Below the pieces are notes generated by a model that saw only the letters and a program-made list of their open reading frames with translations, was not told where the DNA came from and searched no databases. A DNA stretch of 64,000 bases from the human T2T-CHM13v2.0 reference genome, Homo sapiens, in assembly GCF_009914755.1 (NCBI RefSeq), contig NC_060936.1; one strand, 5' to 3'. The translations under genes and the position numbers were made by a program. Every line of letters begins with the position of its first letter. Position 1 is the stretch's first letter. Positions 1,350-10,877 of the stretch are shown in pieces.

Positions 1350-1481
1350 ATTCCTATTCTAGAAATAAAATTGAAGATCCTTCCAGTTCTTGGATTTCTA
1401 GGTGGAGTAATATTTTCCTGTTCAAATTATTTCCATGTTATCCTCCATGGTGGTGTTGGCAAGAATGGATCCACTATAGCA
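1350..1481 (+). CDS. CHPT1: CHPT1 (choline phosphotransferase 1) coding exon 5, IPILEIKLK...GKNGSTIA
   Basis: AG at 1348-1349, GT at 1482; 132 nt, phase 0-0; peptide recognised as CHPT1. Confidence 0.95.
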
Positions 1482-2226
1482 GTAAGGCAATAATTTCATC
1501 ATTCAGTGTCAATTTTATGATACATTTTCTTATCACCAGTTATAAAAAGATTAAAATATGCCAAAGTTCAAGAATGGGGAAGGAAACTAAGTATCTTAAA
1601 GAATTCATTTTAGGCACATAGTACAAAAGCATTTTAAAAACAGTTTAAACTGATATTTTCCTCTTTCTACAAGCTTGCTCTGCATAGACTTTTCTGACAT
1701 CTAGTTTCATTACTGCACATAATTAAGAGTTGCCATTTGTTTTCCTGCATTTTGTGCCTTGAACTAATAGCAGAGAGGAGAAAGGGTAGGGAATGTATGA
1801 GTTCCTGATTGAAAGCAGGAAAGTGGCCAGAGGTCAATGGTTTCACATATGGGGGGATTTATTACTCATCAAGTAAATTTTATTGAAATTTCACTGAAAT
1901 ATATTTAAAAGAACTATTCTAATATTTCAAAAGGTAAAATTTTAACTTTAATTCTTAAGTGGGTATACTTTGTGCTTGTGTTCTTTACACCTTGCTCATG
2001 CAAGTATTAAATATAATGCTTTTGTATTTTTTCACATTTGTTTTTTAAAACTTCAGTACTTTTAAGTGGGCAAGAGTTGGGATTCCTGCAAACTTTTTAA
2101 ACAAATATAACACCTATGTTTTTAAAAAGCCTATTGTCATTTTCAAGGTAGTTGAACAGAAGAAGACAAGTACTTATTCCAGTGATACCATCTTATACCA
2201 AACCATTGTTATAATGCCTTTTTCAG

Positions 2227-2525
2227 GGCCGGGCACAGTGGCTCATGCTTGTAATCCTAGCAATTTTGGAGGCCGAGGCAGGTGGATCACTTGAGGTCAA
2301 GAGTTCGAGACCAGCCTGGCCAACATGGTGAAACCCTGTCGCTACCAAAAATACAAAAAAATTAGCTGGGCATGGTGGCCATGCTTTTGTAAATCCAGCT
2401 AGCTACTTGGGAGGCTGAGGCAGGACAATTGCTTGAACCAGGAGGCGGCGGTTGCAGTAAGCTGAGACGGTGCCACTGCACTCCAGCCTGGGTGACAGAG
2501 CGAGACTCTGTTTCAAAAAAAAAAA
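2227..2525 (+). mobile_element. Alu (S-type)
   Basis: Dimeric Alu, A-tail, AATGCCTTTTT flanking repeat. Confidence 0.92.
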
Positions 2526-3005
2526 GAATGCCTTTTTAGGATTGCTTTAAACTATAGCATATTCACTTTAATTTCTTTTGTTGTATAGTTCAAAATTTCT
2601 ATCCTTTAAAGTCATTTGGAGCAAGGTCTAATAAGATATTAAACATTAGATATAGCATTTTTAGTAAAAAAAAGTCTCATTCTTTTAAAAGACGTGTAAG
2701 TAGACTTTCGAGACAATTTCAAAGGGATCCTCATAATTGACAAATTGTCAATATTTATGAATACACTTTATATACATAATTCAAAAGCAAAGTATACAAT
2801 TCATCTAGAAATATAAGTTCTGATATATTTGGAAAAGTTGTCATTTTTTGAGGTGTTTTGTCAGTTGATCTCAGTATAGTACTGTGCTTAGGAATACATG
2901 TTGCTTGACTGTGGATGATAACATAGAACAATAGTTGGAACGTTAAGTTCCATTGAAGAAAACAAGATGTAGTAATGATCATTGTCTACTCTAAAGAATA
3001 TTTTT

Positions 3006-3297
3006 GACCAGATGCGGTGGCTCACGCTTGTAATCCCAGCACTTTGGGAGGCCGAGGCGGGCAGATCATTAGGTCAGGAGTTCAAGACCAGTCTGGCCAA
3101 CACAATGAAACCCTGTCTCTACTAAAAATACAAAAATTAGCTGGGCTTAGTGGCGGGCACCTGTAATCCCAGCTACTCAGGAGGCTGAGGCAGGAAAATC
3201 GATTGAACCTGGGAGGCGGAGGTTGCAGTAAGGCAAGATCATGCCACTGCACTTAAGCCTGGGTGACAGAGCTAGATTCCATCTCAAAAAAAAAAAA
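3006..3297 (+). mobile_element. Alu (S-type)
   Basis: Dimeric Alu with A-tail; AAAGAATATTTT flanking repeat. Confidence 0.92.
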
Positions 3298-3798
3298 GAA
3301 TATTTTCATTAAAAAAACTGTTAGATGTTTGAAGGATGACTTAAACACAAGTTAGGAAGTGGTTGGTTTCAAACTCTTAAACTGGTATTTTTCCAACTTT
3401 TTTAGGAGCAGATTTTTTTTCTTGAATGAGATTTAAGAATCATAATATAAAGCACTATTAGATTTTTATAATTTATTACTATACAGTGTCATGTATATAA
3501 TTTTATAATATGGTATTACTGTAATTTTATAGTAAGTTCTAACTTAAAACATGTAAACTTAATAAACAAGAGTAAAGCTGTTCTTGTGAACCCATTTAAA
3601 TTGGTTATAGATTTAATAACCTCAATACCAAATTTATTTCAATATTTTATTTAGGATAAGCAGTGCCGAGAGGATACTAATTCACATAGATAAAAATGTA
3701 ATGGTCTGGATTTTACAATTTTACATAAAAGAACATTTGCAGTCTGAATGCAAAAAGAAAGGAGGTGGGGATGTTGGTGTAGAAAGAAACTAGGATAA

Positions 3799-3953
3799 GC
3801 TGGGTGTGGTGGCTCTCGCCTGTAATCCCAGCACTTTGAGAAGCTGAGGCTGGGAGGATCGCTTGAGCCCGGGAGTTTGAGACTGGCCTGGGCAACATGG
3901 GGAAACCCTGTCTCTACTAAAAACACAAAAAATTAAAAAAAAAAAAAAAAAAA
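3799..3953 (+). mobile_element. Alu left monomer (FLAM/AluJ-like) with A-tail
   Basis: Single Alu arm followed by poly(A). Confidence 0.85.
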
Positions 3954-4394
3954 GAAAATAGGAAAAAAGAAGGAAACCTGAATAGAACTAAACTATTCTT
4001 ACTCTTCTTCATCAGTGATATTTTGTAGAATTGGCAGAATAAGCTCTATTTCAGTATCTCCACAAAATTATGTTAATTTGGCAATCCACATGTGGACTGC
4101 CTTCGATGTAGTAAAAGTTGATATAGAATAAACTGCATTAATTTTTAGCCAGTTTAAAACGTGTGTGAATATCAAACTGGAATCAGACATCTGTGGCACT
4201 GTATTATGTCTCTGTCACCCTCAGGTTCTATGAAACCTTGGAAAGCACAACTCAGGTTTGTATACTCCTGTAGGCCATACACTACATCACACTGTTCTTT
4301 AGGCCTCTTGCACAAAATAGATGGTCAGAAAATGTCTACATTGTAATAAATGCAGTGTTAAAATGTGATACTGATTTTCTGCTTTATCCCTTAG

Positions 4395-4553
4395 GGCACC
4401 AGTGTCTTGTCACCTGGACTCCACATAGGACTAATTATTATACTGGCAATAATGATCTATAAAAAGTCAGCAACTGATGTGTTTGAAAAGCATCCTTGTC
4501 TTTATATCCTAATGTTTGGATGTGTCTTTGCTAAAGTCTCACAAAAATTAGTG
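4395..4553 (+). CDS. CHPT1: CHPT1 coding exon 6, [10 protein letters not shown]...AKVSQKLV
   Basis: TTAG acceptor, GTAAGA donor; 159 nt in frame with exon 5. Confidence 0.95.
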
Positions 4554-4948
4554 GTAAGAAATTTTTATTATTCATGATATAAATAATATACTTAGTCGTC
4601 AAACACAAAGCTGGAAATTATTTCATAAAATGTATAGGTTTTCTTTTGTAGTGTAAAATCATAATAATTAGCTATTTGTGCTCCAAGCAAAACTGTGATA
4701 AGAGTTATATTCAGTTAAATTGTTTAGCTGTAGTTATCATTTACAACTTTCTGATATCAAGAAATTTAAACACTGGAAACTTTAATAAGCTACCCAGTTG
4801 TGAATTTGAGAAGGTGTAGAAAAGTATTCTTAAATGTGAGATTAAATGGTCTGTTTTAATACTGAATTAAAGTTATAATTAATTCTGTCGTAAAAGCTAA
4901 CACATTTAAAACTTAATAGTAAAATTATTTTGTTTAATTTTTTTATAG

Positions 4949-5074
4949 GTAGCTCACATGACCAAAAGTGAACTATATCTTCAAGACACTGTCTTTTTGG
5001 GGCCAGGTCTTTTGTTTTTAGACCAGTACTTTAATAACTTTATAGACGAATATGTTGTTCTATGGATGGCAATG
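4949..5074 (+). CDS. CHPT1: CHPT1 coding exon 7, [13 protein letters not shown]...VVLWMAM
   Basis: TTTTATAG acceptor, GTAAGT donor; 126 nt; overlaps ORF 4958..5176. Confidence 0.95.
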
Positions 5075-5161
5075 GTAAGTATTTTTCTCCATTTTATTTA
5101 TTTTTTAACAATGCTTAAGAGCTATTTCAGTGAGCTATCAGTAGCCTCAAGATCTAGTCTA

Positions 5162-5461
5162 GGCCAGGCGTGGTGACTCACGCCTGTAATCCCAGCACTT
5201 TGGGAGGCCAAGGTGGACGGATCATTTGAGGTCAAGAGTTTGAGACCAACCTGGCCAACATGGTAAAACTCTGTCTGTACCAAAAAATACAAAAAATTAG
5301 CCAGGCGTGGTGGTGCATCCCTGTAATCCCAGCTACTCAGGAGGCTGAGGCAGGCAAATCACTTGAACCTGGGAGGCAGAGGTTGCGGTGAGCCGAGATC
5401 ATGCCACTGCACTCCAGCCTGGGTGACACAGCGAGACTGTGTCTCAAAAAAAAAAAAAAAA
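5162..5461 (+). mobile_element. Alu (S-type)
   Basis: Dimeric Alu; TSD AAGATCTAGTCTA. Confidence 0.93.
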
Positions 5462-7520
5462 GATCTAGTCTATACAATATATACAATAAATGTTTCTGAG
5501 TATTTAAAATTACTTCTTCTAAGCTGTGAATAATATTATATTGTGTGTAGAAATGGCCACATATCTATAGGCCAGGTTTCCAACAACCTGGATTCTTGGA
5601 AACACAACTGTGTACCTAAAAATAGCTATATTTTTCTCCCCCAAAATACCAGTACAAAGATGCCAAAAACCACTTTACTCTGCCCAAAGACTTTATTCCC
5701 AGTTTACAGCAAGTAACAGGAAAATTAGATGGGGTTAGTACTAGCAAAGGTGGGCACTTTATTGCATCGAGAATTGTCAGCTAATATTGAGGAAACAAAA
5801 CAGAATAGACAGTGCTACTAAATACAGGATTCTCAGACCATTTTATGCTAGATGTAAGGAACCCTTTTTATGTGTATGGCCCTTGAGGATAGTGTATAAT
5901 TTGTATTAATGATGACTCAGTCATCAATTAAATTAAATTCGCTTTGATTATATCCTGCTTAAGGAAACGACGTGGATGACATAATTTCTATTCAAAATGA
6001 TTATAAAATACAGAATATAGTGCTTGAGAGAGACACGTTAGCCATCTAAGGAAAAGAAAATCAATATTGGTAACACTTCAATTACAAAGTTGGATAAATG
6101 GAGCATTATTACATTTTTTTTCTATTGAGACATATCTTTATGGTTGGTCTCCAATTAATGGTGGCTTTGAATAGTTTTCTTGTATTTCTATCTCTGGACC
6201 CACTGGTTGTCACCAAATTCATAGTGATATATAAATATACCGAAGTACACCAAAACAAAACCCCCCAAAACCCTGCAGTGAATCTTTTGATAATTCAAAT
6301 AATCTCACCGTATTTGTTAGATTTGGATATTTAAAAAAATCTGTATCTATTCTGTGCATGGATTACAGGAGTACATCTAATGGTCCCTTACTAGGTTGTG
6401 TAGTATGCTTTTTCTGGAGTAACTTAATAACGTAATATTCATTCATAGTCCATTCAGAAGTCTTCATTCTTCCTATGGTGGCAGTGAGATATACTTAATT
6501 CTTTGAGGTGGACAATGAACGTTTTCAGGCAAAATTAAAAAAAAAAATGTTTAAAAATCAGAATAATGTCCTTTAATTTGGTATCCACTATAAATATTTT
6601 TAGGGCTCCCAAACAATCCAGTTTAAAAAATAGGGGATAATTAATCAAAATATCTAAAAACTCAATGTAAGTTTTCTTTTAGTGAACTTAGGTATGTATT
6701 ACCAAGTGGAATTGCTGAATTAAAATACCAGGTGTTAAAAAAATCAATCATCTGTCGTAACGAGTAATTGGCCTGGTTTACACCTGTGATGGAGACTGGT
6801 AAACTGAGGAAGTCAAATTCAATTTTTATTTAAAACACTATGTGGATGACAAAAAAAAAAAAAAAAAGCCACACACACAATGTGGTACTTTTCAAGTAAG
6901 CTTTTAACATAAATGATAGAGATTTTCCCCTCATGGGTGAGAATTCCCTCTCCAAGGGCAGAGCTATGAGTCTCCTTTTTCTCCTGGGTTTCATTTTCTG
7001 AAGAGAAGCATTTGACTGTAGACTCTGGGCAAAGTTTCTAAATAGAGGCCATCTTTAAATTTGTAAACACAATTCTGTATATGCTTCAAGTATGGTATCT
7101 TTTCTAGACCTTTTACCTTCTTACAACTAACCTCAAAGAAACAGAAATGTATATGATGGAATTAATTCATTATAAGATGACTGATAACTTCTTCTAGAAG
7201 GAAATTTGCAGCTTCGTGGCACAGCAGGAAGTTGAAACAATGTGGAGTCAGGAGAGTTGGGTTCTGTTACTTTCTAGTTTCTGTATTTTAGTCGTCTTTT
7301 TTACCTCTGAGCCTCAGTGTCTATAACTGTGAAATAACCTGCATTTTCCAGAGGACTACAGTGAGGTCCAAATTTGAAATGTATTAAAGTGCTTTAAAAT
7401 GTAGTATTTTTGGTGAAGAATTTTAGGTTAAGGTTTGATATTTGGGGGAGAAACAGAATAGTGCTACTTGAGAAAAGATAGATCATAATCGATTTTATAT
7501 TTTCTTTTTTGCTTCTAAAG

Positions 7521-7631
7521 GTGATTTCTTCATTTGATATGGTGATATACTTTAGTGCTTTGTGCCTGCAAATTTCAAGACACCTTCATCTAAATATATT
7601 CAAGACTGCATGTCATCAAGCACCTGAACAG
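7521..7631 (+). CDS. CHPT1: CHPT1 coding exon 8, VISSFDMVIYF...CHQAPEQ
   Basis: Pyrimidine tract plus AAG acceptor; weak donor CAG|GTTCAC; 111 nt. Confidence 0.93.
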
Positions 7632-7652
7632 GTTCACAAGCATATTGACTGA
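7632..7652 (+). CDS. CHPT1: CHPT1 alternative C-terminus by read-through of the exon 8 donor (VHKHID*)
   Basis: In-frame GTT CAC AAG CAT ATT GAC TGA; downstream tandem AATAAA at 8217 and 8233. Confidence 0.7.
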   Translation, partial: VHKHID

Positions 7653-8216
7653 CTAATAGCCCAAGGAAAAGAGGAGATGAAGTTAGGGGAATCTATGAGT
7701 GAAGGAAATCCCCCTGTGCAGGAGGCTAGTATACCATCAATAAGGTTATATTTGAATATAAAACATAAACCCTGTAGATTTCATTGTGTCTTATTTCAGT
7801 TATGAAGCCCCCGTTGTATCATCATTTTTTATCACAGATGTTCTCAGAATTGTCTACATATTAATTAGAAACAAGACTAAAGAAATGTCAATCCTGAGGA
7901 CAACAGTGAACCCCTGTAATTCTAAGTAGCAGTTTGTCTCTGAGACTTATCAGACACAGGGTTTTCACTGCCAAAGGATTACATAAATATTCAGAACATA
8001 AAGGATTTTAGCCATCTTGAGGGTGCTTACTTTGACTGCTAAAAACTGAAAAGTGATTCAATACTGCTTAAGTGCATGGCTTATAATGTAATTATTGAAT
8101 CAAGTTATGTTCTAAGAAATTTTTTATACTAATCATTTTTCAAGAGGCATATTAGTATGTTATAAAATACTTGCTTTTAGTATACTAGAATTTAAAAGGG
8201 CTACAGGAATTTTTTA

Positions 8217-8238
8217 AATAAAATTTGTATTTAATAAA
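8217..8238 (+). terminator. Tandem AATAAA, putative intronic poly(A) site for the short CHPT1 isoform
   Basis: AATAAA at 8217-8222 and 8233-8238 followed by GT-rich ATTTGTTGT. Confidence 0.5.
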
Positions 8239-9169
8239 AGGAATTTGTTGTACCAGTTCAGAAAAACATACGAATCTTTATACTGAAGGTAACTTGTTCC
8301 TTGATATTTTGAGTTAAAATTTCACTGTCACTGAAAAGTGGATGTTAAATATTCCCTTTCATGAAAAATGAAAACAGTAGCTAAGAGTCAGTTGACATGT
8401 AAGAAAATTAGTAACTTAGAAAAACTTACTTGGTAAAAAAAATCTTCCTTTTAGAATACAAAAGTTTACTTTAAGTACACACTGACTCATTTGAGGTGAT
8501 AAGGGATAAAATAAGTAAAAGTTATTCAACCACTAAGTACATTAGGTACTGATACTTATCTTTCCACTCTAATTGAAATGTATTTAGATTACTCATTATG
8601 AATACTACTAGAACTATCACAAAGATCTCTGGGGATCCAAATCTTCAGATTCCCATCTGACCCTATTTATTTTTAATTTTATATAATAGTTCAACAGACC
8701 ATATGTCATATGATGAAGTAATCAAAAAAAAAAAAAAGGAGTAATTTGTGTACTACATCTGTTTTAGGCAAGAAAAAGGTATATTGAAGAAAACAGTGAA
8801 AGATGATATTCCTTAAAAGCAAAAAAACATACTTATGGGAATTAAGTACACAGAAAACACTGGAGTACTTATTTTGCCTCTAACTAACTATTGGTAAAAC
8901 TTCCCAAATAAGGACTTTCTTACAAGGATGAATAGTACTTATGATTTATATTCTAATAATATATACTTTGGCTTAAAAGGAAAATCCTTTACAAAGTTCA
9001 AAAATTTAGGAAATAATGTCAAATATTCGTTAATGGTGGAAGACTAATTTCTTCCTGTACAAGTAGGTTGTCACAATTAGAAAAAGTTTATCTGTAGGCA
9101 CCTGTTTTTTTAAAACTTGGAAAACCTTATTATAACTAAGATAAGGGTGAGTTATACAGGCAAAAATTA

Positions 9170-9544
<375 letters not shown>

Positions 9545-9889
9545 TTAATTTAATTGCAGACCAAGCCCAATGAAGTGACATTATGTCTTTGTGGCAATGA
9601 CATATTCACAAATCCATGTCTTAAAACTGTTATTTATATATTGTTCTATTGCTAGTGATTTAATGTTCAGAGGTTAATGATTTTAGCAATTTATTCCAGA
9701 ACACAAATTTAAATGCATCTTATTGTCATTAGAATCGGTTGTACAACTTAAGTATATAGAAAAGGATGTACATGTAAAATAGATTTTGTATTCCGTTTTT
9801 TCCTTAAAGAACATAACCTTCTATACTTGGTTTTCTACCTTTTGGGATTGATAGAGATACAATGAAGCCAAACCTAAAATTAAATCGTC

Positions 9890-9895
9890 TTTATT
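9890..9895 (-). terminator. SYCP3: SYCP3 poly(A) signal
   Basis: TTTATT on + (AATAAA on -), about 260 nt after the SYCP3 stop. Confidence 0.7.
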
Positions 9896-10127
9896 TAATT
9901 GACAGTGTTAGAGAGAAAAATTCACTATCATTACTAAAGAGCTGAAAGCTTAATACATATTCTTTAGGAATAGTTGCTAACTAACTCATAACTATTTAGA
10001 TTTGACTTAACAGAAAGGGAGGTCTTACAATGAAACAGGTTTATGATTAAAGATGTTACAATTAAACTATTCTAAAGACTTACAATATGCTTCTTAGCTA
10101 ACGTTATAATTGTATCATATTACTTAG

Positions 10128-10172
10128 GTTCAAGTTCTTTCTTCAAAGAGTCATCAGAATAACATGGATTGA
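10128..10172 (+). CDS. CHPT1: CHPT1 terminal coding exon 9, VQVLSSKSHQNNMD*
   Basis: TAG acceptor with CTAAC branch-like motif at 10098-10102; matches the recalled human CHPT1 C-terminus. Confidence 0.88.
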   Translation, partial: VQVLSSKSHQNNMD

Positions 10173-10207
10173 AGAGACTTCCGAACACTTGCTATCTCTT
10201 GCTGCTG
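10154..10207 (-). CDS. SYCP3: SYCP3 last coding exon (9), QQQEIASVRKSLQSMLF*
   Basis: CAG acceptor at 10210-10208; TGA at 10156-10154 followed by a second TGA. Confidence 0.96.
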   Translation of the reverse strand, partial: QQQEIASVRKSLQSMLF

Positions 10208-10274
10208 CTGTTTCATGGAAGGAGATATTAAACATTTGTTTAATTTTTATTTAAGTGTTATACCTATTTCAGCA

Positions 10275-10280
10275 AATAAA
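10275..10280 (+). terminator. CHPT1: CHPT1 poly(A) signal, located inside SYCP3 intron 8
   Basis: AATAAA about 100 nt after the CHPT1 stop. Confidence 0.7.
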
Positions 10281-10335
10281 ATATTTCATTGCTTATATTA
10301 ATCCTTATTTTTTCAATTTCAATATGATCACTTAC

Positions 10336-10440
10336 AGTTTCCATCATAATTTTTTTTTGCAACATAGCCATTTCTTTTTTAAATTCATTTTGTGCACCAG
10401 TAAGTAGATTATCATGATTCTTCTCCAACTCTTCCATACT
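10336..10440 (-). CDS. SYCP3: SYCP3 exon 8, [10 protein letters not shown]...KKIMMET
   Basis: TTTTTAG acceptor, GTAAGT donor; 105 nt. Confidence 0.96.
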
Positions 10441-10877
10441 CTAAAAACACAAAAGACAAGTTAAGTTACAAAGGACCACTTTTCATCTCAGGTTCTAAAC
10501 TTGTACAATTAATTTTCAAAAGTAGTAATTTTTGAATATTCAAATGCTCATCTATTTGAAATAAAAATATTCTAAGTAATACATGAATACCAAAATACCT
10601 ACTAAAAAAGAAAAAATATAAGACATGAATAAAATGTTATAGGAAGTACAATGTAGTATACTTTGCCCACAATGGGTTTCCTGAACTGTTAAGGTCAAGA
10701 TAAAAAAGACTGGAAGTCCCACATCAGTAAAAACCATTTCTATTAAGCTTTCCAAATATCAAGCAATAATCTACTTATGACTAATAGTGTGCCATGAATT
10801 CACTAGAGGGAATAAAATAATCTATAGTACAACCTCTTTCACATTATGAAAAATAAAAATTATGTCTTACGTCTTTA

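What the first reader, a model, noticed from the sequence alone, without database searches (positions are those of the whole stretch)
10128..10280. CHPT1 and SYCP3 coding sequences overlap on opposite strands
Seen: CHPT1 exon 9 CDS (10128-10172, +) and SYCP3 exon 9 CDS (10154-10207, -) share 19 bp. Each gene's stop codon lies within the other's reading frame. The mature mRNAs are complementary over 10128-10207, the CHPT1 poly(A) signal is in SYCP3 intron 8, and the SYCP3 signal is in CHPT1 intron 8. Antisense coding overlap is rare in mammals. Inference: CHPT1 exon 9 was overprinted on the antisense of SYCP3, which could allow RNA duplexes or convergent interference in spermatocytes. It would also make unstranded RNA-seq report false somatic SYCP3 expression.
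Basis: partly seen in the sequence, partly recalled or inferred. Interest (0 to 1): 0.75.

Follow-up and report, generated by a model that had tools for sequence, protein, structure and literature searches.

The report
Ancient CHPT1–SYCP3 antisense coding overlap
The last coding exons of human CHPT1 and SYCP3 really do share 19 bases on opposite strands; gene-overlap lists already include this pair, and protein comparisons suggest the arrangement is at least as old as four-limbed vertebrates and covers the short SYCP3 tail needed for its fibre assembly.

Summary
Observation confirmed. CHPT1 exon 9 (10128-10172,+; VQVLSSKSHQNNMD*) and SYCP3 exon 9 (10154-10207,-...SLQSMLF*) share 19 bp. Each stop lies in the other's frame. 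The mRNAs are complementary over 80 nt. Each poly(A) signal lies in the other's intron 8.

The overlap is not new. Besides RefSeq, Soldà 2008's supplements list the pair, citing 2004 catalogues.

What I add:
- The 19 bp are SYCP3's Ct6 patch (aa 231-236), required for fibre assembly, plus its stop.
- Third codon positions face each other; 3 of 57 single-base changes are silent in both genes.
- Exon 9 is an alternative last exon. 52 of 120 CHPT1-family proteins carry its tail, from frogs to human. 26 carry a short tail made by reading through the exon-8 donor, also seen in elephant shark.
- SYCP3 ends LQSMLF from coelacanth to human.
- SYCP3-silent sites needed for CHPT1's Met and stop are kept (49/52, 51/52).
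- A snake CHPT1 N>Y change is mirrored by SYCP3 F>Y.

Overprinting on the older SYCP3 end is supported, but it is old, not mammalian. RNA-duplex or interference roles remain untested.

The parts
10128..10172 (+). CHPT1 exon 9 coding part: 14 codons plus TGA (VQVLSSKSHQNNMD*)
   Evidence: The tail is conserved in 52 of 120 CHPT1-family proteins.
10154..10207 (-). SYCP3 last coding part: 17 codons plus TGA (QQQEIASVRKSLQSMLF*)
   Evidence: The end LQSMLF is found in 88 of 107 newly retrieved orthologue models.
10154..10172 (.). 19-bp dual-coding segment. It holds the SYCP3 stop, F236 to Q232 and the wobble of L231 (the Ct6 patch), opposite CHPT1 (His wobble) Q N N M D plus stop. Third positions face third positions.
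   Evidence: register table; mutation table; Ct6 = aa 231-236, needed for fibre formation.
10128..10207 (.). 80-bp stretch present in both mature mRNAs (perfect complementarity)
   Evidence: Intersection of the annotated exons 10128-10301 (+) and 9875-10207 (-). Sequence.
10108..10127 (+). CHPT1 intron-8 acceptor (TAG at 10125-10127) with the weakest pyrimidine tract of the five acceptors in the window (11 of 18)
7632..7652 (+). Read-through of the CHPT1 exon-8 donor (CAG|GTTCAC): alternative short C-terminus VHKHID plus TGA
   Evidence: sequence. The tail VHKHID occurs in 13 retrieved mammalian models and related VQNH(N/H)(D/E) tails in sauropsids and elephant shark. The donor matches 5 of 9 consensus positions.
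10173..10301 (+). CHPT1 exon-9 3'UTR; AATAAA at 10275-10280, inside SYCP3 intron 8
   Evidence: hub gene table
9875..10153 (-). SYCP3 3'UTR. A second in-frame TGA at 10151-10153 gives a tandem stop. AATAAA (TTTATT on +) at 9890-9895, inside CHPT1 intron 8.
10208..10335 (-). SYCP3 intron 8 (GT-AG), which holds the CHPT1 poly(A) signal. It is retained in another annotated SYCP3 transcript (9875-10440).
   Evidence: hub gene table. Intron-retention-type ends ('ETVS...') occur in orthologue models.

Best explanation
CHPT1 exon 9 is a conserved alternative last exon that lies antisense inside the last exon of SYCP3.

How it works. The exon-8 donor of CHPT1 is weak. It is either read through, giving the older short tail VHKHID* and a proximal 3' end, or spliced to a weak acceptor at 10127. 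That acceptor sits in the antisense of the SYCP3 3'UTR. The resulting frame runs 9 codons opposite the SYCP3 3'UTR and then 5 codons plus the stop opposite the SYCP3 stop and its last residues.

The dual-coding segment. The shared 19 bp encode SYCP3's Ct6 self-assembly patch (LQSMLF) on one strand and CHPT1's ...QNNMD* on the other. They sit in the antisense register where wobble faces wobble, which costs both genes least.

Inferred history. The SYCP3 end is the older constraint. CHPT1 extended its 3' end across the convergent neighbour before frogs and amniotes split. Since then the CHPT1 tail has been under its own purifying selection, which freezes otherwise silent sites of SYCP3 (the S233 wobble, the L231 wobble and the choice of TGA as stop).

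Shown: the anatomy, the register, the two alternative tails, the depth of conservation, and the constraint pattern at protein level. Inferred: that the non-human exon-9 tails overlap SYCP3 at DNA level, the order of events, and selection on the tail. Unknown: what the 14-residue tail does, and whether the two transcripts influence each other.
For: Anatomy.

Two tails. One search found 233 hits, of which the 120 best were listed. Of those 120, 52 carry the exon-9 tail, 26 carry the read-through tail and 42 are other. The exon-9 tail is seen in primates, carnivores, bats, ruminants, squirrel-type and hystricomorph rodents, aardvark, marsupials, echidna, turtles, tuatara, lizards, snakes, birds, and the frogs Ascaphus and Discoglossus. 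51 of 52 tails are exactly 14 residues, so there is no indel even in the 26 nt opposite the SYCP3 3'UTR.

Older short tail: elephant shark VQNHHD, and CEPT1-type ends ...HSNHH.

SYCP3 end: LQSMLF in 88 of 93 full-length-type ends, including caecilian, newt, lungfish and coelacanth. Among 66 deep unnamed family representatives that reach the profile end, 39 keep an S-[LMIV]-[LFV]-[FYLMA] end. PMC4102245 (passages read) states that the last six residues are conserved and required for fibre formation.

Constraint beyond SYCP3. Given LQSMLF* alone, wobble drift keeps QNNMD* in only 8 of 128 codings, and TAA or TAG as the SYCP3 stop would truncate CHPT1. Observed: Q 52/52, second N 52/52, M 49/52, terminal D/stop position 51/52. 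Losing the TGA would add 43 codons.

Mirror substitution. Elapid Notechis CHPT1 ...HQYNMD predicts SYCP3 ...SMLY. That end is found in the colubroids Pantherophis and Erythrolamprus. Vipera has SMLF and pythons have CHPT1 HQNNMD.

Linkage. Ascaphus CHPT1 and SYCP3 carry consecutive locus tags on one contig. The same contig holds both genes in 10 further species.

Use of the isoform: a 406-residue CHPT1 chain in PDB 9uet.
Against: - No non-human DNA could be read. Overlap in other species is inferred from peptides, because the tail equals the antisense reading of the SYCP3 end.
- Many orthologue proteins are automated gene models, which can copy a tail by homology.
- The mirror substitution is matched at clade level, not within one species.
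- Rhinolophus ferrumequinum SYCP3 ends SMLL, whereas R. sinicus CHPT1 ends HQNNMD. That does not mirror, although the species differ, and it is unresolved.
- The predicted partners for hystricomorph HQSNMD, Hipposideros HQNNVD, tarsier SLHSVLF and beaver SILF were not among the sequences retrieved.
- Discoglossus (13-residue tail ending NNI) and Alligator (VQVVQ) do not fit simply.
- Frozen SYCP3-silent sites could in principle reflect an RNA-level constraint on SYCP3 itself.
- The absence of exon 9 from shark rests on one model. Bony fishes, lungfish and coelacanth CHPT1 were not among the 120 listed hits.
- The sequences are phylogenetically non-independent, so the k-of-n counts overstate the number of independent observations.
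Confidence: 0.75

Rival explanations
1. Passive by-product. CHPT1 merely terminates in its neighbour. The 14-residue tail has no function of its own, and its conservation only reflects constraint on SYCP3 (coding sequence, stop context, proximal 3'UTR).
For: The five overlapping CHPT1 residues are largely dictated by the SYCP3 peptide: D and the second N are forced, and Q and the first N are nearly so. Positions 4-8 of the tail, opposite the 3'UTR, vary (L/V/I, S/P, S/P, K/L/V, S/N). A short alternative tail exists and is the only one seen in several mammals. Soldà 2008 (abstract and passages) says overlaps often arise by acquiring terminal exons and are mostly species-specific.
Against: Sites silent for SYCP3 are kept: the S233 wobble (CHPT1 Met 49/52) and the L231 wobble (CHPT1 stop position 51/52). 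Only 1 in 16 wobble codings would keep both. Tail length is invariant in 51 of 52 tails across the 26 nt opposite a 3'UTR. V-Q-V and His9 are nearly invariant.
Confidence: 0.13
2. Regulatory antisense pair. The arrangement is kept because convergent transcription or an 80-nt mRNA duplex lets SYCP3 and CHPT1 regulate each other in meiotic cells, for example by shifting CHPT1 to its proximal short-tail 3' end when SYCP3 is on.
For: Perfect 80-nt complementarity of the mature mRNAs, with each poly(A) site inside the other gene. CHPT1 has a ready alternative proximal end with a weak donor and a weak acceptor. The arrangement is old. CHPT1 isoform usage is reported as regulated in other settings (passages in PMC3562341 and PMC10410515), but neither passage concerns the 3' end or SYCP3.
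Against: No expression, small-RNA or editing data were available here. No known RNA family lies at the site; there is one sub-threshold chance hit. The conservation pattern is codon-structured (Met and stop kept) and needs no RNA-level role. This rival is not exclusive of the best explanation.
Confidence: 0.1
3. Annotation artefact. Exon 9 is a rare or untranslated splice product, and the coding overlap exists only on paper.
For: The acceptor and donor are weak. The ORF is only 14 codons, which is trivially open by chance.
Against: It is the RefSeq-selected transcript (hub table). A 406-residue CHPT1 chain is in PDB 9uet. The tail is conserved from frog to human in 52 models plus unnamed transcript-derived proteins. 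The pair appears in independent cDNA-based catalogues.
Confidence: 0.02

Closest known systems
[quoted passage not shown]
   Same: Two protein-coding genes on opposite strands share terminal exon sequence. This very pair is entry Cluster555 (NM_020244/NM_153694) in Soldà 2008 supplementary files 2 and 5, with the two 2004 papers given as sources.
   Different: Most catalogued overlaps are UTR-UTR and species-specific, and overlaps involving coding sequence are under-represented (Soldà 2008 abstract and passages). Here both CDSs overlap, and the arrangement appears to be kept from frogs to human. The catalogue rows I saw give no anatomy, register or age.
ERCC1 with its antisense 3' neighbour: a conserved 3' antisense overlap (van Duin 1989, seen only as a title in the reference list)
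   Same: A tail-to-tail overlap of two unrelated genes that is conserved over a long evolutionary distance.
   Different: I did not read that paper, and whether coding sequence is shared there is not known to me from any call. In CHPT1/SYCP3 the shared part includes a functionally mapped protein motif.
Overprinted or dual-coding regions (classical in viruses; a few mammalian cases, recalled rather than looked up here)
   Same: A younger frame is laid over an older, strongly constrained one. Substitutions are visible in both proteins (the snake N>Y / F>Y mirror).
   Different: It is only 19 nt, antisense rather than same-strand, and created by splicing into a neighbour rather than by a new start codon. 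No new protein arises, only a new C-terminal tail.
Alternative last exon versus donor read-through (intronic polyadenylation) isoform pairs
   Same: A weak donor is either spliced to a distal terminal exon or read through to a nearby stop and 3' end. This yields two C-termini and two 3'UTRs.
   Different: The distal terminal exon is embedded in another gene's coding exon on the other strand.

Membership tests
Convergent cis-natural antisense pair of protein-coding genes | Genes on opposite strands, tail to tail | tested here: met
   hub gene table
Convergent cis-natural antisense pair of protein-coding genes | Mature transcripts share exonic sequence | tested here: met
   Exons 10128-10301 (+) and 9875-10207 (-) intersect over 80 bp
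Convergent cis-natural antisense pair of protein-coding genes | Both transcripts present in the same cell | not testable with these tools
   No expression data available
Antisense dual-coding (CDS-CDS) segment under selection in both frames | Both annotated frames open and in phase across the shared bases | tested here: met
Antisense dual-coding (CDS-CDS) segment under selection in both frames | Constraint at sites silent in frame 1 but not in frame 2, and the reverse | tested here: met
   Indirect, from proteins. SYCP3-silent sites at 10166 and 10172 are implied to be fixed (CHPT1 Met 49/52, stop position 51/52) against a 1/16 expectation. The SYCP3 end is invariant in 88/93. No nucleotide alignment was possible.
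Antisense dual-coding (CDS-CDS) segment under selection in both frames | Both frames translated | tested here: inconclusive
   SYCP3 Ct6 is functionally mapped. For CHPT1 there is only the 406-residue PDB chain and conservation; no ribosome or peptide data.
Overprinted (younger-on-older) coding sequence | One frame demonstrably older | tested here: met
   The SYCP3-type end is family-wide (PMC4102245 passages)
Overprinted (younger-on-older) coding sequence | Younger frame phylogenetically restricted | tested here: inconclusive
   The exon-9 tail is seen in tetrapods only. Elephant shark and CEPT1 have the short type. CHPT1 of bony fishes, lungfish and coelacanth was not among the 120 listed hits, and unnamed P0080 could not be placed.
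Regulatory natural antisense transcript (duplex or transcriptional interference) | Expression of one partner changes level or isoform of the other | not testable with these tools
   No data. The Rfam scan of 9500-10800 found nothing above threshold.

The most novel reading that the evidence does not exclude
The CHPT1/SYCP3 19-mer is one of the oldest antisense coding-coding overlaps in vertebrates, and it is kept for a regulatory reason as well as a coding one. When SYCP3 is switched on in meiotic cells, convergent transcription or the 80-nt duplex would push CHPT1 from its exon-9 end to the proximal read-through end. This would couple a phosphatidylcholine-synthesis isoform switch to entry into meiosis. 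The resemblance of the two CHPT1 tails (Q-N-x-x-D in both) would then mean that the antisense of SYCP3's Ct6 motif happened to mimic a functional CHPT1 C-terminal motif, which allowed the exon to be captured.
Probability: 0.1. Interest if true: 0.6.

Novelty: already known. Interest (0 to 1): 0.35.

Why it matters
The overlap itself is ordinary knowledge: it is in RefSeq and in overlap catalogues since 2004. Its details have practical and modest conceptual value.

(1) Variant interpretation. In 10154-10172 only 3 of 57 possible single-base changes are silent in both genes. 'Synonymous' SYCP3 variants at S233 or L231, or a TGA>TAA stop change, alter CHPT1 (Met>Ile, stop loss with +43 codons, or premature stop). 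Infertility panels that target SYCP3 necessarily read CHPT1 too; one panel lists both genes.

(2) Expression analysis. Unstranded reads from CHPT1 exon 9 can be credited to SYCP3, especially to its intron-retaining model. This bears on reports of somatic or tumour SYCP3 expression and remains to be tested.

(3) Evolution. Catalogues report that most animal gene overlaps are species-specific and that coding overlaps are selected against. A coding-coding antisense overlap apparently held since before the frog-amniote split, on top of a mapped assembly motif, with mirror substitutions visible in two proteins, is a neat natural test case for methods that estimate selection in overlapping frames.

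Tried and rejected
- **SYCP3 exon 8 as search query:** I used the 44-aa first coding exon instead, then a profile of 7 full-length orthologues.
- **Direct DNA comparison in other vertebrates:** not possible. The DNA collections on hand hold viruses, prokaryotes, plasmids and E. coli only, so all cross-species inference is from proteins.
- **Same-species mirror tests:** Those four predictions stay untested. The Rhinolophus pair (different species) does not mirror.
- **Placing unnamed P0080** (tail VKVISSVKHQNNID) to date the exon more deeply: 67-77% identity to tetrapods and 71% to elephant shark. Inconclusive, so it was not used for dating.
- **Mouse entry in Soldà 2008 supplementary file 2:** searched with accession numbers recalled from memory and with gene symbols; no hit. 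This is uninformative, because the accessions may be wrong and the file holds no symbols.
- **Supplements of Sanna 2008 and Makałowska 2007:** not readable. One file of PMC2811022 was not searched and the others gave no hit. These may also list the pair.
- **Main-text searches:** 'CHPT1'+'SYCP3' gave 12 papers, of which I read passages in 3. 'CHPT1'+'antisense'+'overlap' gave 13 papers, of which I read passages in 2. For 'SYCP3'/'sense-antisense'/'overlapping genes', none of the 15 listed papers holds SYCP3. I found no main-text description of this overlap in the library searched; subscription journals are not covered.
- **Rfam scan of 9500-10800:** only a Yersinia sRNA model at 23 bits against a gathering score of 66, which is chance.
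- **Artefact reading and the reverse order (SYCP3 extending into an older CHPT1 exon):** both considered and rejected, as explained in the full report.

Full report
**1.
Window 10128-10172 (+) translates to VQVLSSKSHQNNMD*, and 10154-10207 (-) translates to QQQEIASVRKSLQSMLF*. A script joined the annotated coding parts. The five CHPT1 parts in the window form one open frame ending at that stop. The eight SYCP3 parts give a 236-residue protein. Every intron is GT-AG.

The coding overlap is 10154-10172 (19 bp), and the exon overlap is 10128-10207 (80 bp). Each stop codon sits inside two codons of the other gene. AATAAA on the + strand at 10275 lies in SYCP3 intron 8. AATAAA on the - strand (9895-9890) lies in CHPT1 intron 8.

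**2.
- Third codon positions face each other throughout the 19 bp. CHPT1 position 1 pairs with SYCP3 position 2, and CHPT1 position 2 with SYCP3 position 1.
- In this register three wobble pairs are two-fold degenerate in both genes. Of the 57 possible single-base changes, 43 change both proteins, 8 change only CHPT1, 3 change only SYCP3 and 3 change neither.
- On the SYCP3 side, the 19 bp comprise the stop, F236, L235, M234, S233, Q232 and the wobble of L231. Residues 231-236 are the 'Ct6' patch. Its deletion abolishes SYCP3 fibre formation, and the paper describes it as conserved through evolution (PMC4102245, passages read; it cites Baier 2007 and Fraune 2012, which I did not read).
- SYCP3 has a tandem TGA-TGA. 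If the CHPT1 TGA were lost, its frame would run 43 more codons, to the end of the annotated exon.

**3. Exon 9 is an alternative last exon.**
The exon-8 donor is CAG|GTTCAC, matching 5 of 9 consensus positions. Reading through it gives VHKHID* at 7632-7652. The exon-9 acceptor has the poorest pyrimidine tract of the five CHPT1 acceptors in the window, 11 of 18.

I searched the large protein collection with CHPT1 exon 6 (53 aa). This gave 233 hits at E<=1e-3, of which the best 120 were listed and examined:

| Class | Count (of 120) | Notes |
|---|---|---|
| Exon-9 tail | 52 | 20 distinct variants |
| Read-through tail | 26 | VHKHID in eutherians; VQNHNE, VQNHND or VQNHSD in sauropsids; VQNHHD in elephant shark |
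| Other | 42 | Fragments, CEPT1, odd models; includes two near-variants of the short tail, and Alligator ending VQVVQ |

The exon-9 tail occurs in primates, carnivores, bats, ruminants, marmot, hystricomorph rodents, aardvark, four marsupials, echidna, turtles, tuatara, lizards, snakes, birds, and the frogs Ascaphus and Discoglossus. Only the short tail was seen for hamster, deer mouse, jerboa, kangaroo rat, elephant and shrew. That means 'not seen', not 'lost'. CEPT1-type proteins end ...HSNHH.

The short tail therefore looks ancestral. On the sequences I could see, the exon-9 tail is at least as old as the frog-amniote ancestor. That this is more than 300 million years is general knowledge, not a call. 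A 406-residue CHPT1 chain (392 + 14) is in PDB 9uet.

**4. SYCP3 is the older partner.**
I reached full-length orthologues from the 44-aa first coding exon. I then searched with a profile of seven of them: 883 hits, of which the best 120 were listed. Among the 107 sequences new in that call:
- 88 end LQSMLF, including birds, turtles, squamates, Ascaphus, a caecilian, a newt, lungfish and coelacanth.
- 5 have a single- or double-residue variant: SMLY in two, and SMLL, SLHSVLF and SILF in one each.
- 14 are intron-8-retention or truncated models.

A profile search of 1.84 billion unnamed representatives gave 514 hits, of which 150 were listed. I picked by hand the 66 whose best match reaches profile position 233 or beyond. 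Of these, 39 keep an S-[LMIV]-[LFV]-[FYLMA] end, and 4 keep the exact SLQSMLF.

**5. Does the overlap exist outside human?**
I could read no non-human DNA, so this is inference from proteins. Four lines of evidence support it:
- **(i)** QNNMD* is the exact antisense reading of (L)QSMLF*. It requires TGA as the SYCP3 stop, TTR for L235, TCC for S233 and CTT for L231. Only 8 of 2592 synonymous codings of LQSMLF* give it, or 8 of 128 if only wobble positions vary.
- **(ii)** In the 52 tails, Q is kept in 52, the second N in 52, M in 49 and the terminal D/stop position in 51. 51 tails are exactly 14 residues. Met and the stop depend on sites that are silent for SYCP3, so their retention in mammals, sauropsids and Ascaphus points to constraint from CHPT1 itself. 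The fixed length across the 26 nt opposite the SYCP3 3'UTR points the same way. These sequences are related, so the counts are not independent trials.
- **(iii)** A prediction written down before the SYCP3 data were seen (note) was met at clade level. CHPT1 of the elapid Notechis ends HQYNMD, which mirrors to SYCP3 F236Y. The colubroids Pantherophis and Erythrolamprus have SYCP3 ...SMLY. Vipera has SMLF and pythons have CHPT1 HQNNMD. That elapids and colubrids group to the exclusion of vipers and pythons is recalled knowledge.
- **(iv)** Ascaphus CHPT1 and SYCP3 have consecutive locus tags on one contig. Ten further species show both genes on a contig of the same length. A chicken study lists GNPTAB, SYCP3 and CHPT1 together in one region.

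**6. Results against, or unresolved.**
- Rhinolophus ferrumequinum SYCP3 ends SMLL, but R. sinicus CHPT1 ends HQNNMD. A mirror would give HQSNMD or HHNNMD, and the species differ.
- The predicted partners for hystricomorph HQSNMD (SMLL), Hipposideros HQNNVD (STLF), tarsier SLHSVLF and beaver SILF were not retrieved.
- The Discoglossus tail is one residue short (…HQNNI), and Alligator ends VQVVQ.
- Unnamed P0080 carries the tail (…HQNNID) after a 35-residue insert but could not be placed.
- Many sequences are automated models.

**7. What is already known.**
Soldà et al. 2008 list the pair as human Cluster555 (NM_020244/NM_153694) in supplementary files 2 and 5. They give Veeramachaneni 2004 and Chen 2004 as earlier sources. 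I did not read those two papers. The same paper (abstract and passages) reports that overlaps involving coding sequence are under-represented, that overlaps are mostly species-specific, and that they often arise by acquisition of terminal exons.

Three main-text searches, with passages read in five of the papers found, turned up no description of the register, the Ct6 coincidence or the age. Supplements of two other catalogues could not be read. Subscription literature is not covered.

**8. Mechanism.**
Most likely (0.75): an ordinary alternative-last-exon system whose distal exon was captured from the antisense of a convergent neighbour. The cost is low because wobble faces wobble, and the tail has since been held by selection on both proteins.

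A purely passive tail (0.13) is disfavoured by the frozen SYCP3-silent sites. A selected regulatory interaction (0.10) is neither supported nor excluded. An artefact (0.02) is unlikely. No Rfam family lies at the site.

**9. Verdict.**
The finding is real, and as a gene overlap it is already known. The added detail is tidy and useful for variant and RNA-seq interpretation: the overlap coincides with a mapped assembly motif, it appears to be tetrapod-wide in age, and substitutions mirror between the two proteins. It does not amount to a new kind of system. Interest 0.35.

Noticed in passing
window 10208-10335 (-), SYCP3 intron 8: Many orthologue models (primates, marsupials, turtles, bats, geckos) and a human isoform end '...IMMETVS...'. 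This is what reading into intron 8 would give, and it would lack the Ct6 assembly patch. The matching human transcript model is 9875-10440. Whether this Ct6-less form is made as protein is unknown.
   Followed up: partly
window 7632-7652 versus 10152-10172 (+): The older short CHPT1 tail (VQNH[NH][DE] in shark, birds and reptiles) and the end of the exon-9 tail (HQNNMD) share Q-N-x-x-D. Both tails also start with Val (GTT) followed by Gln or His. This could be chance or a functional C-terminal motif that eased capture of the exon.
   Followed up: no
window 10151-10156 (-): SYCP3 ends in a tandem stop, TGA TGA. The second stop lies in the CHPT1 Ser-His codons.
   Followed up: no
window 1350-10172 (+), CHPT1 exons 5-9: All five coding parts in the window are multiples of 3 (132, 159, 126, 111, 45), so skipping any of them keeps the frame. 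6 of the 52 exon-9-tail models join exon 7 directly to exon 9 ('WIAM|VQV...' or 'WIAL|VQV...').
   Followed up: partly
protein P0148: A 1219-residue squirrel model named GNPTAB also carries the SYCP3 domain (PF04803). It is probably a fused gene model across the neighbouring genes GNPTAB and SYCP3.
   Followed up: no
proteins P0221 and P0037: Rhinolophus ferrumequinum SYCP3 ends SMLL, while R. sinicus CHPT1 keeps HQNNMD. If both hold within one species, the mirror rule would be broken there.
   Followed up: partly
proteins P0099 and P0071: The Alligator CHPT1 model ends VQVVQ, and the Discoglossus model ends ...HQNNI, one residue short. These could be lineage-specific changes of the exon-9 tail or model errors.
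   Followed up: no
PMC11892938: A male-infertility sequencing panel lists CHPT1 directly beside SYCP3, presumably because the targets overlap. Variants in 10154-10172 need annotation in both genes.
   Followed up: no
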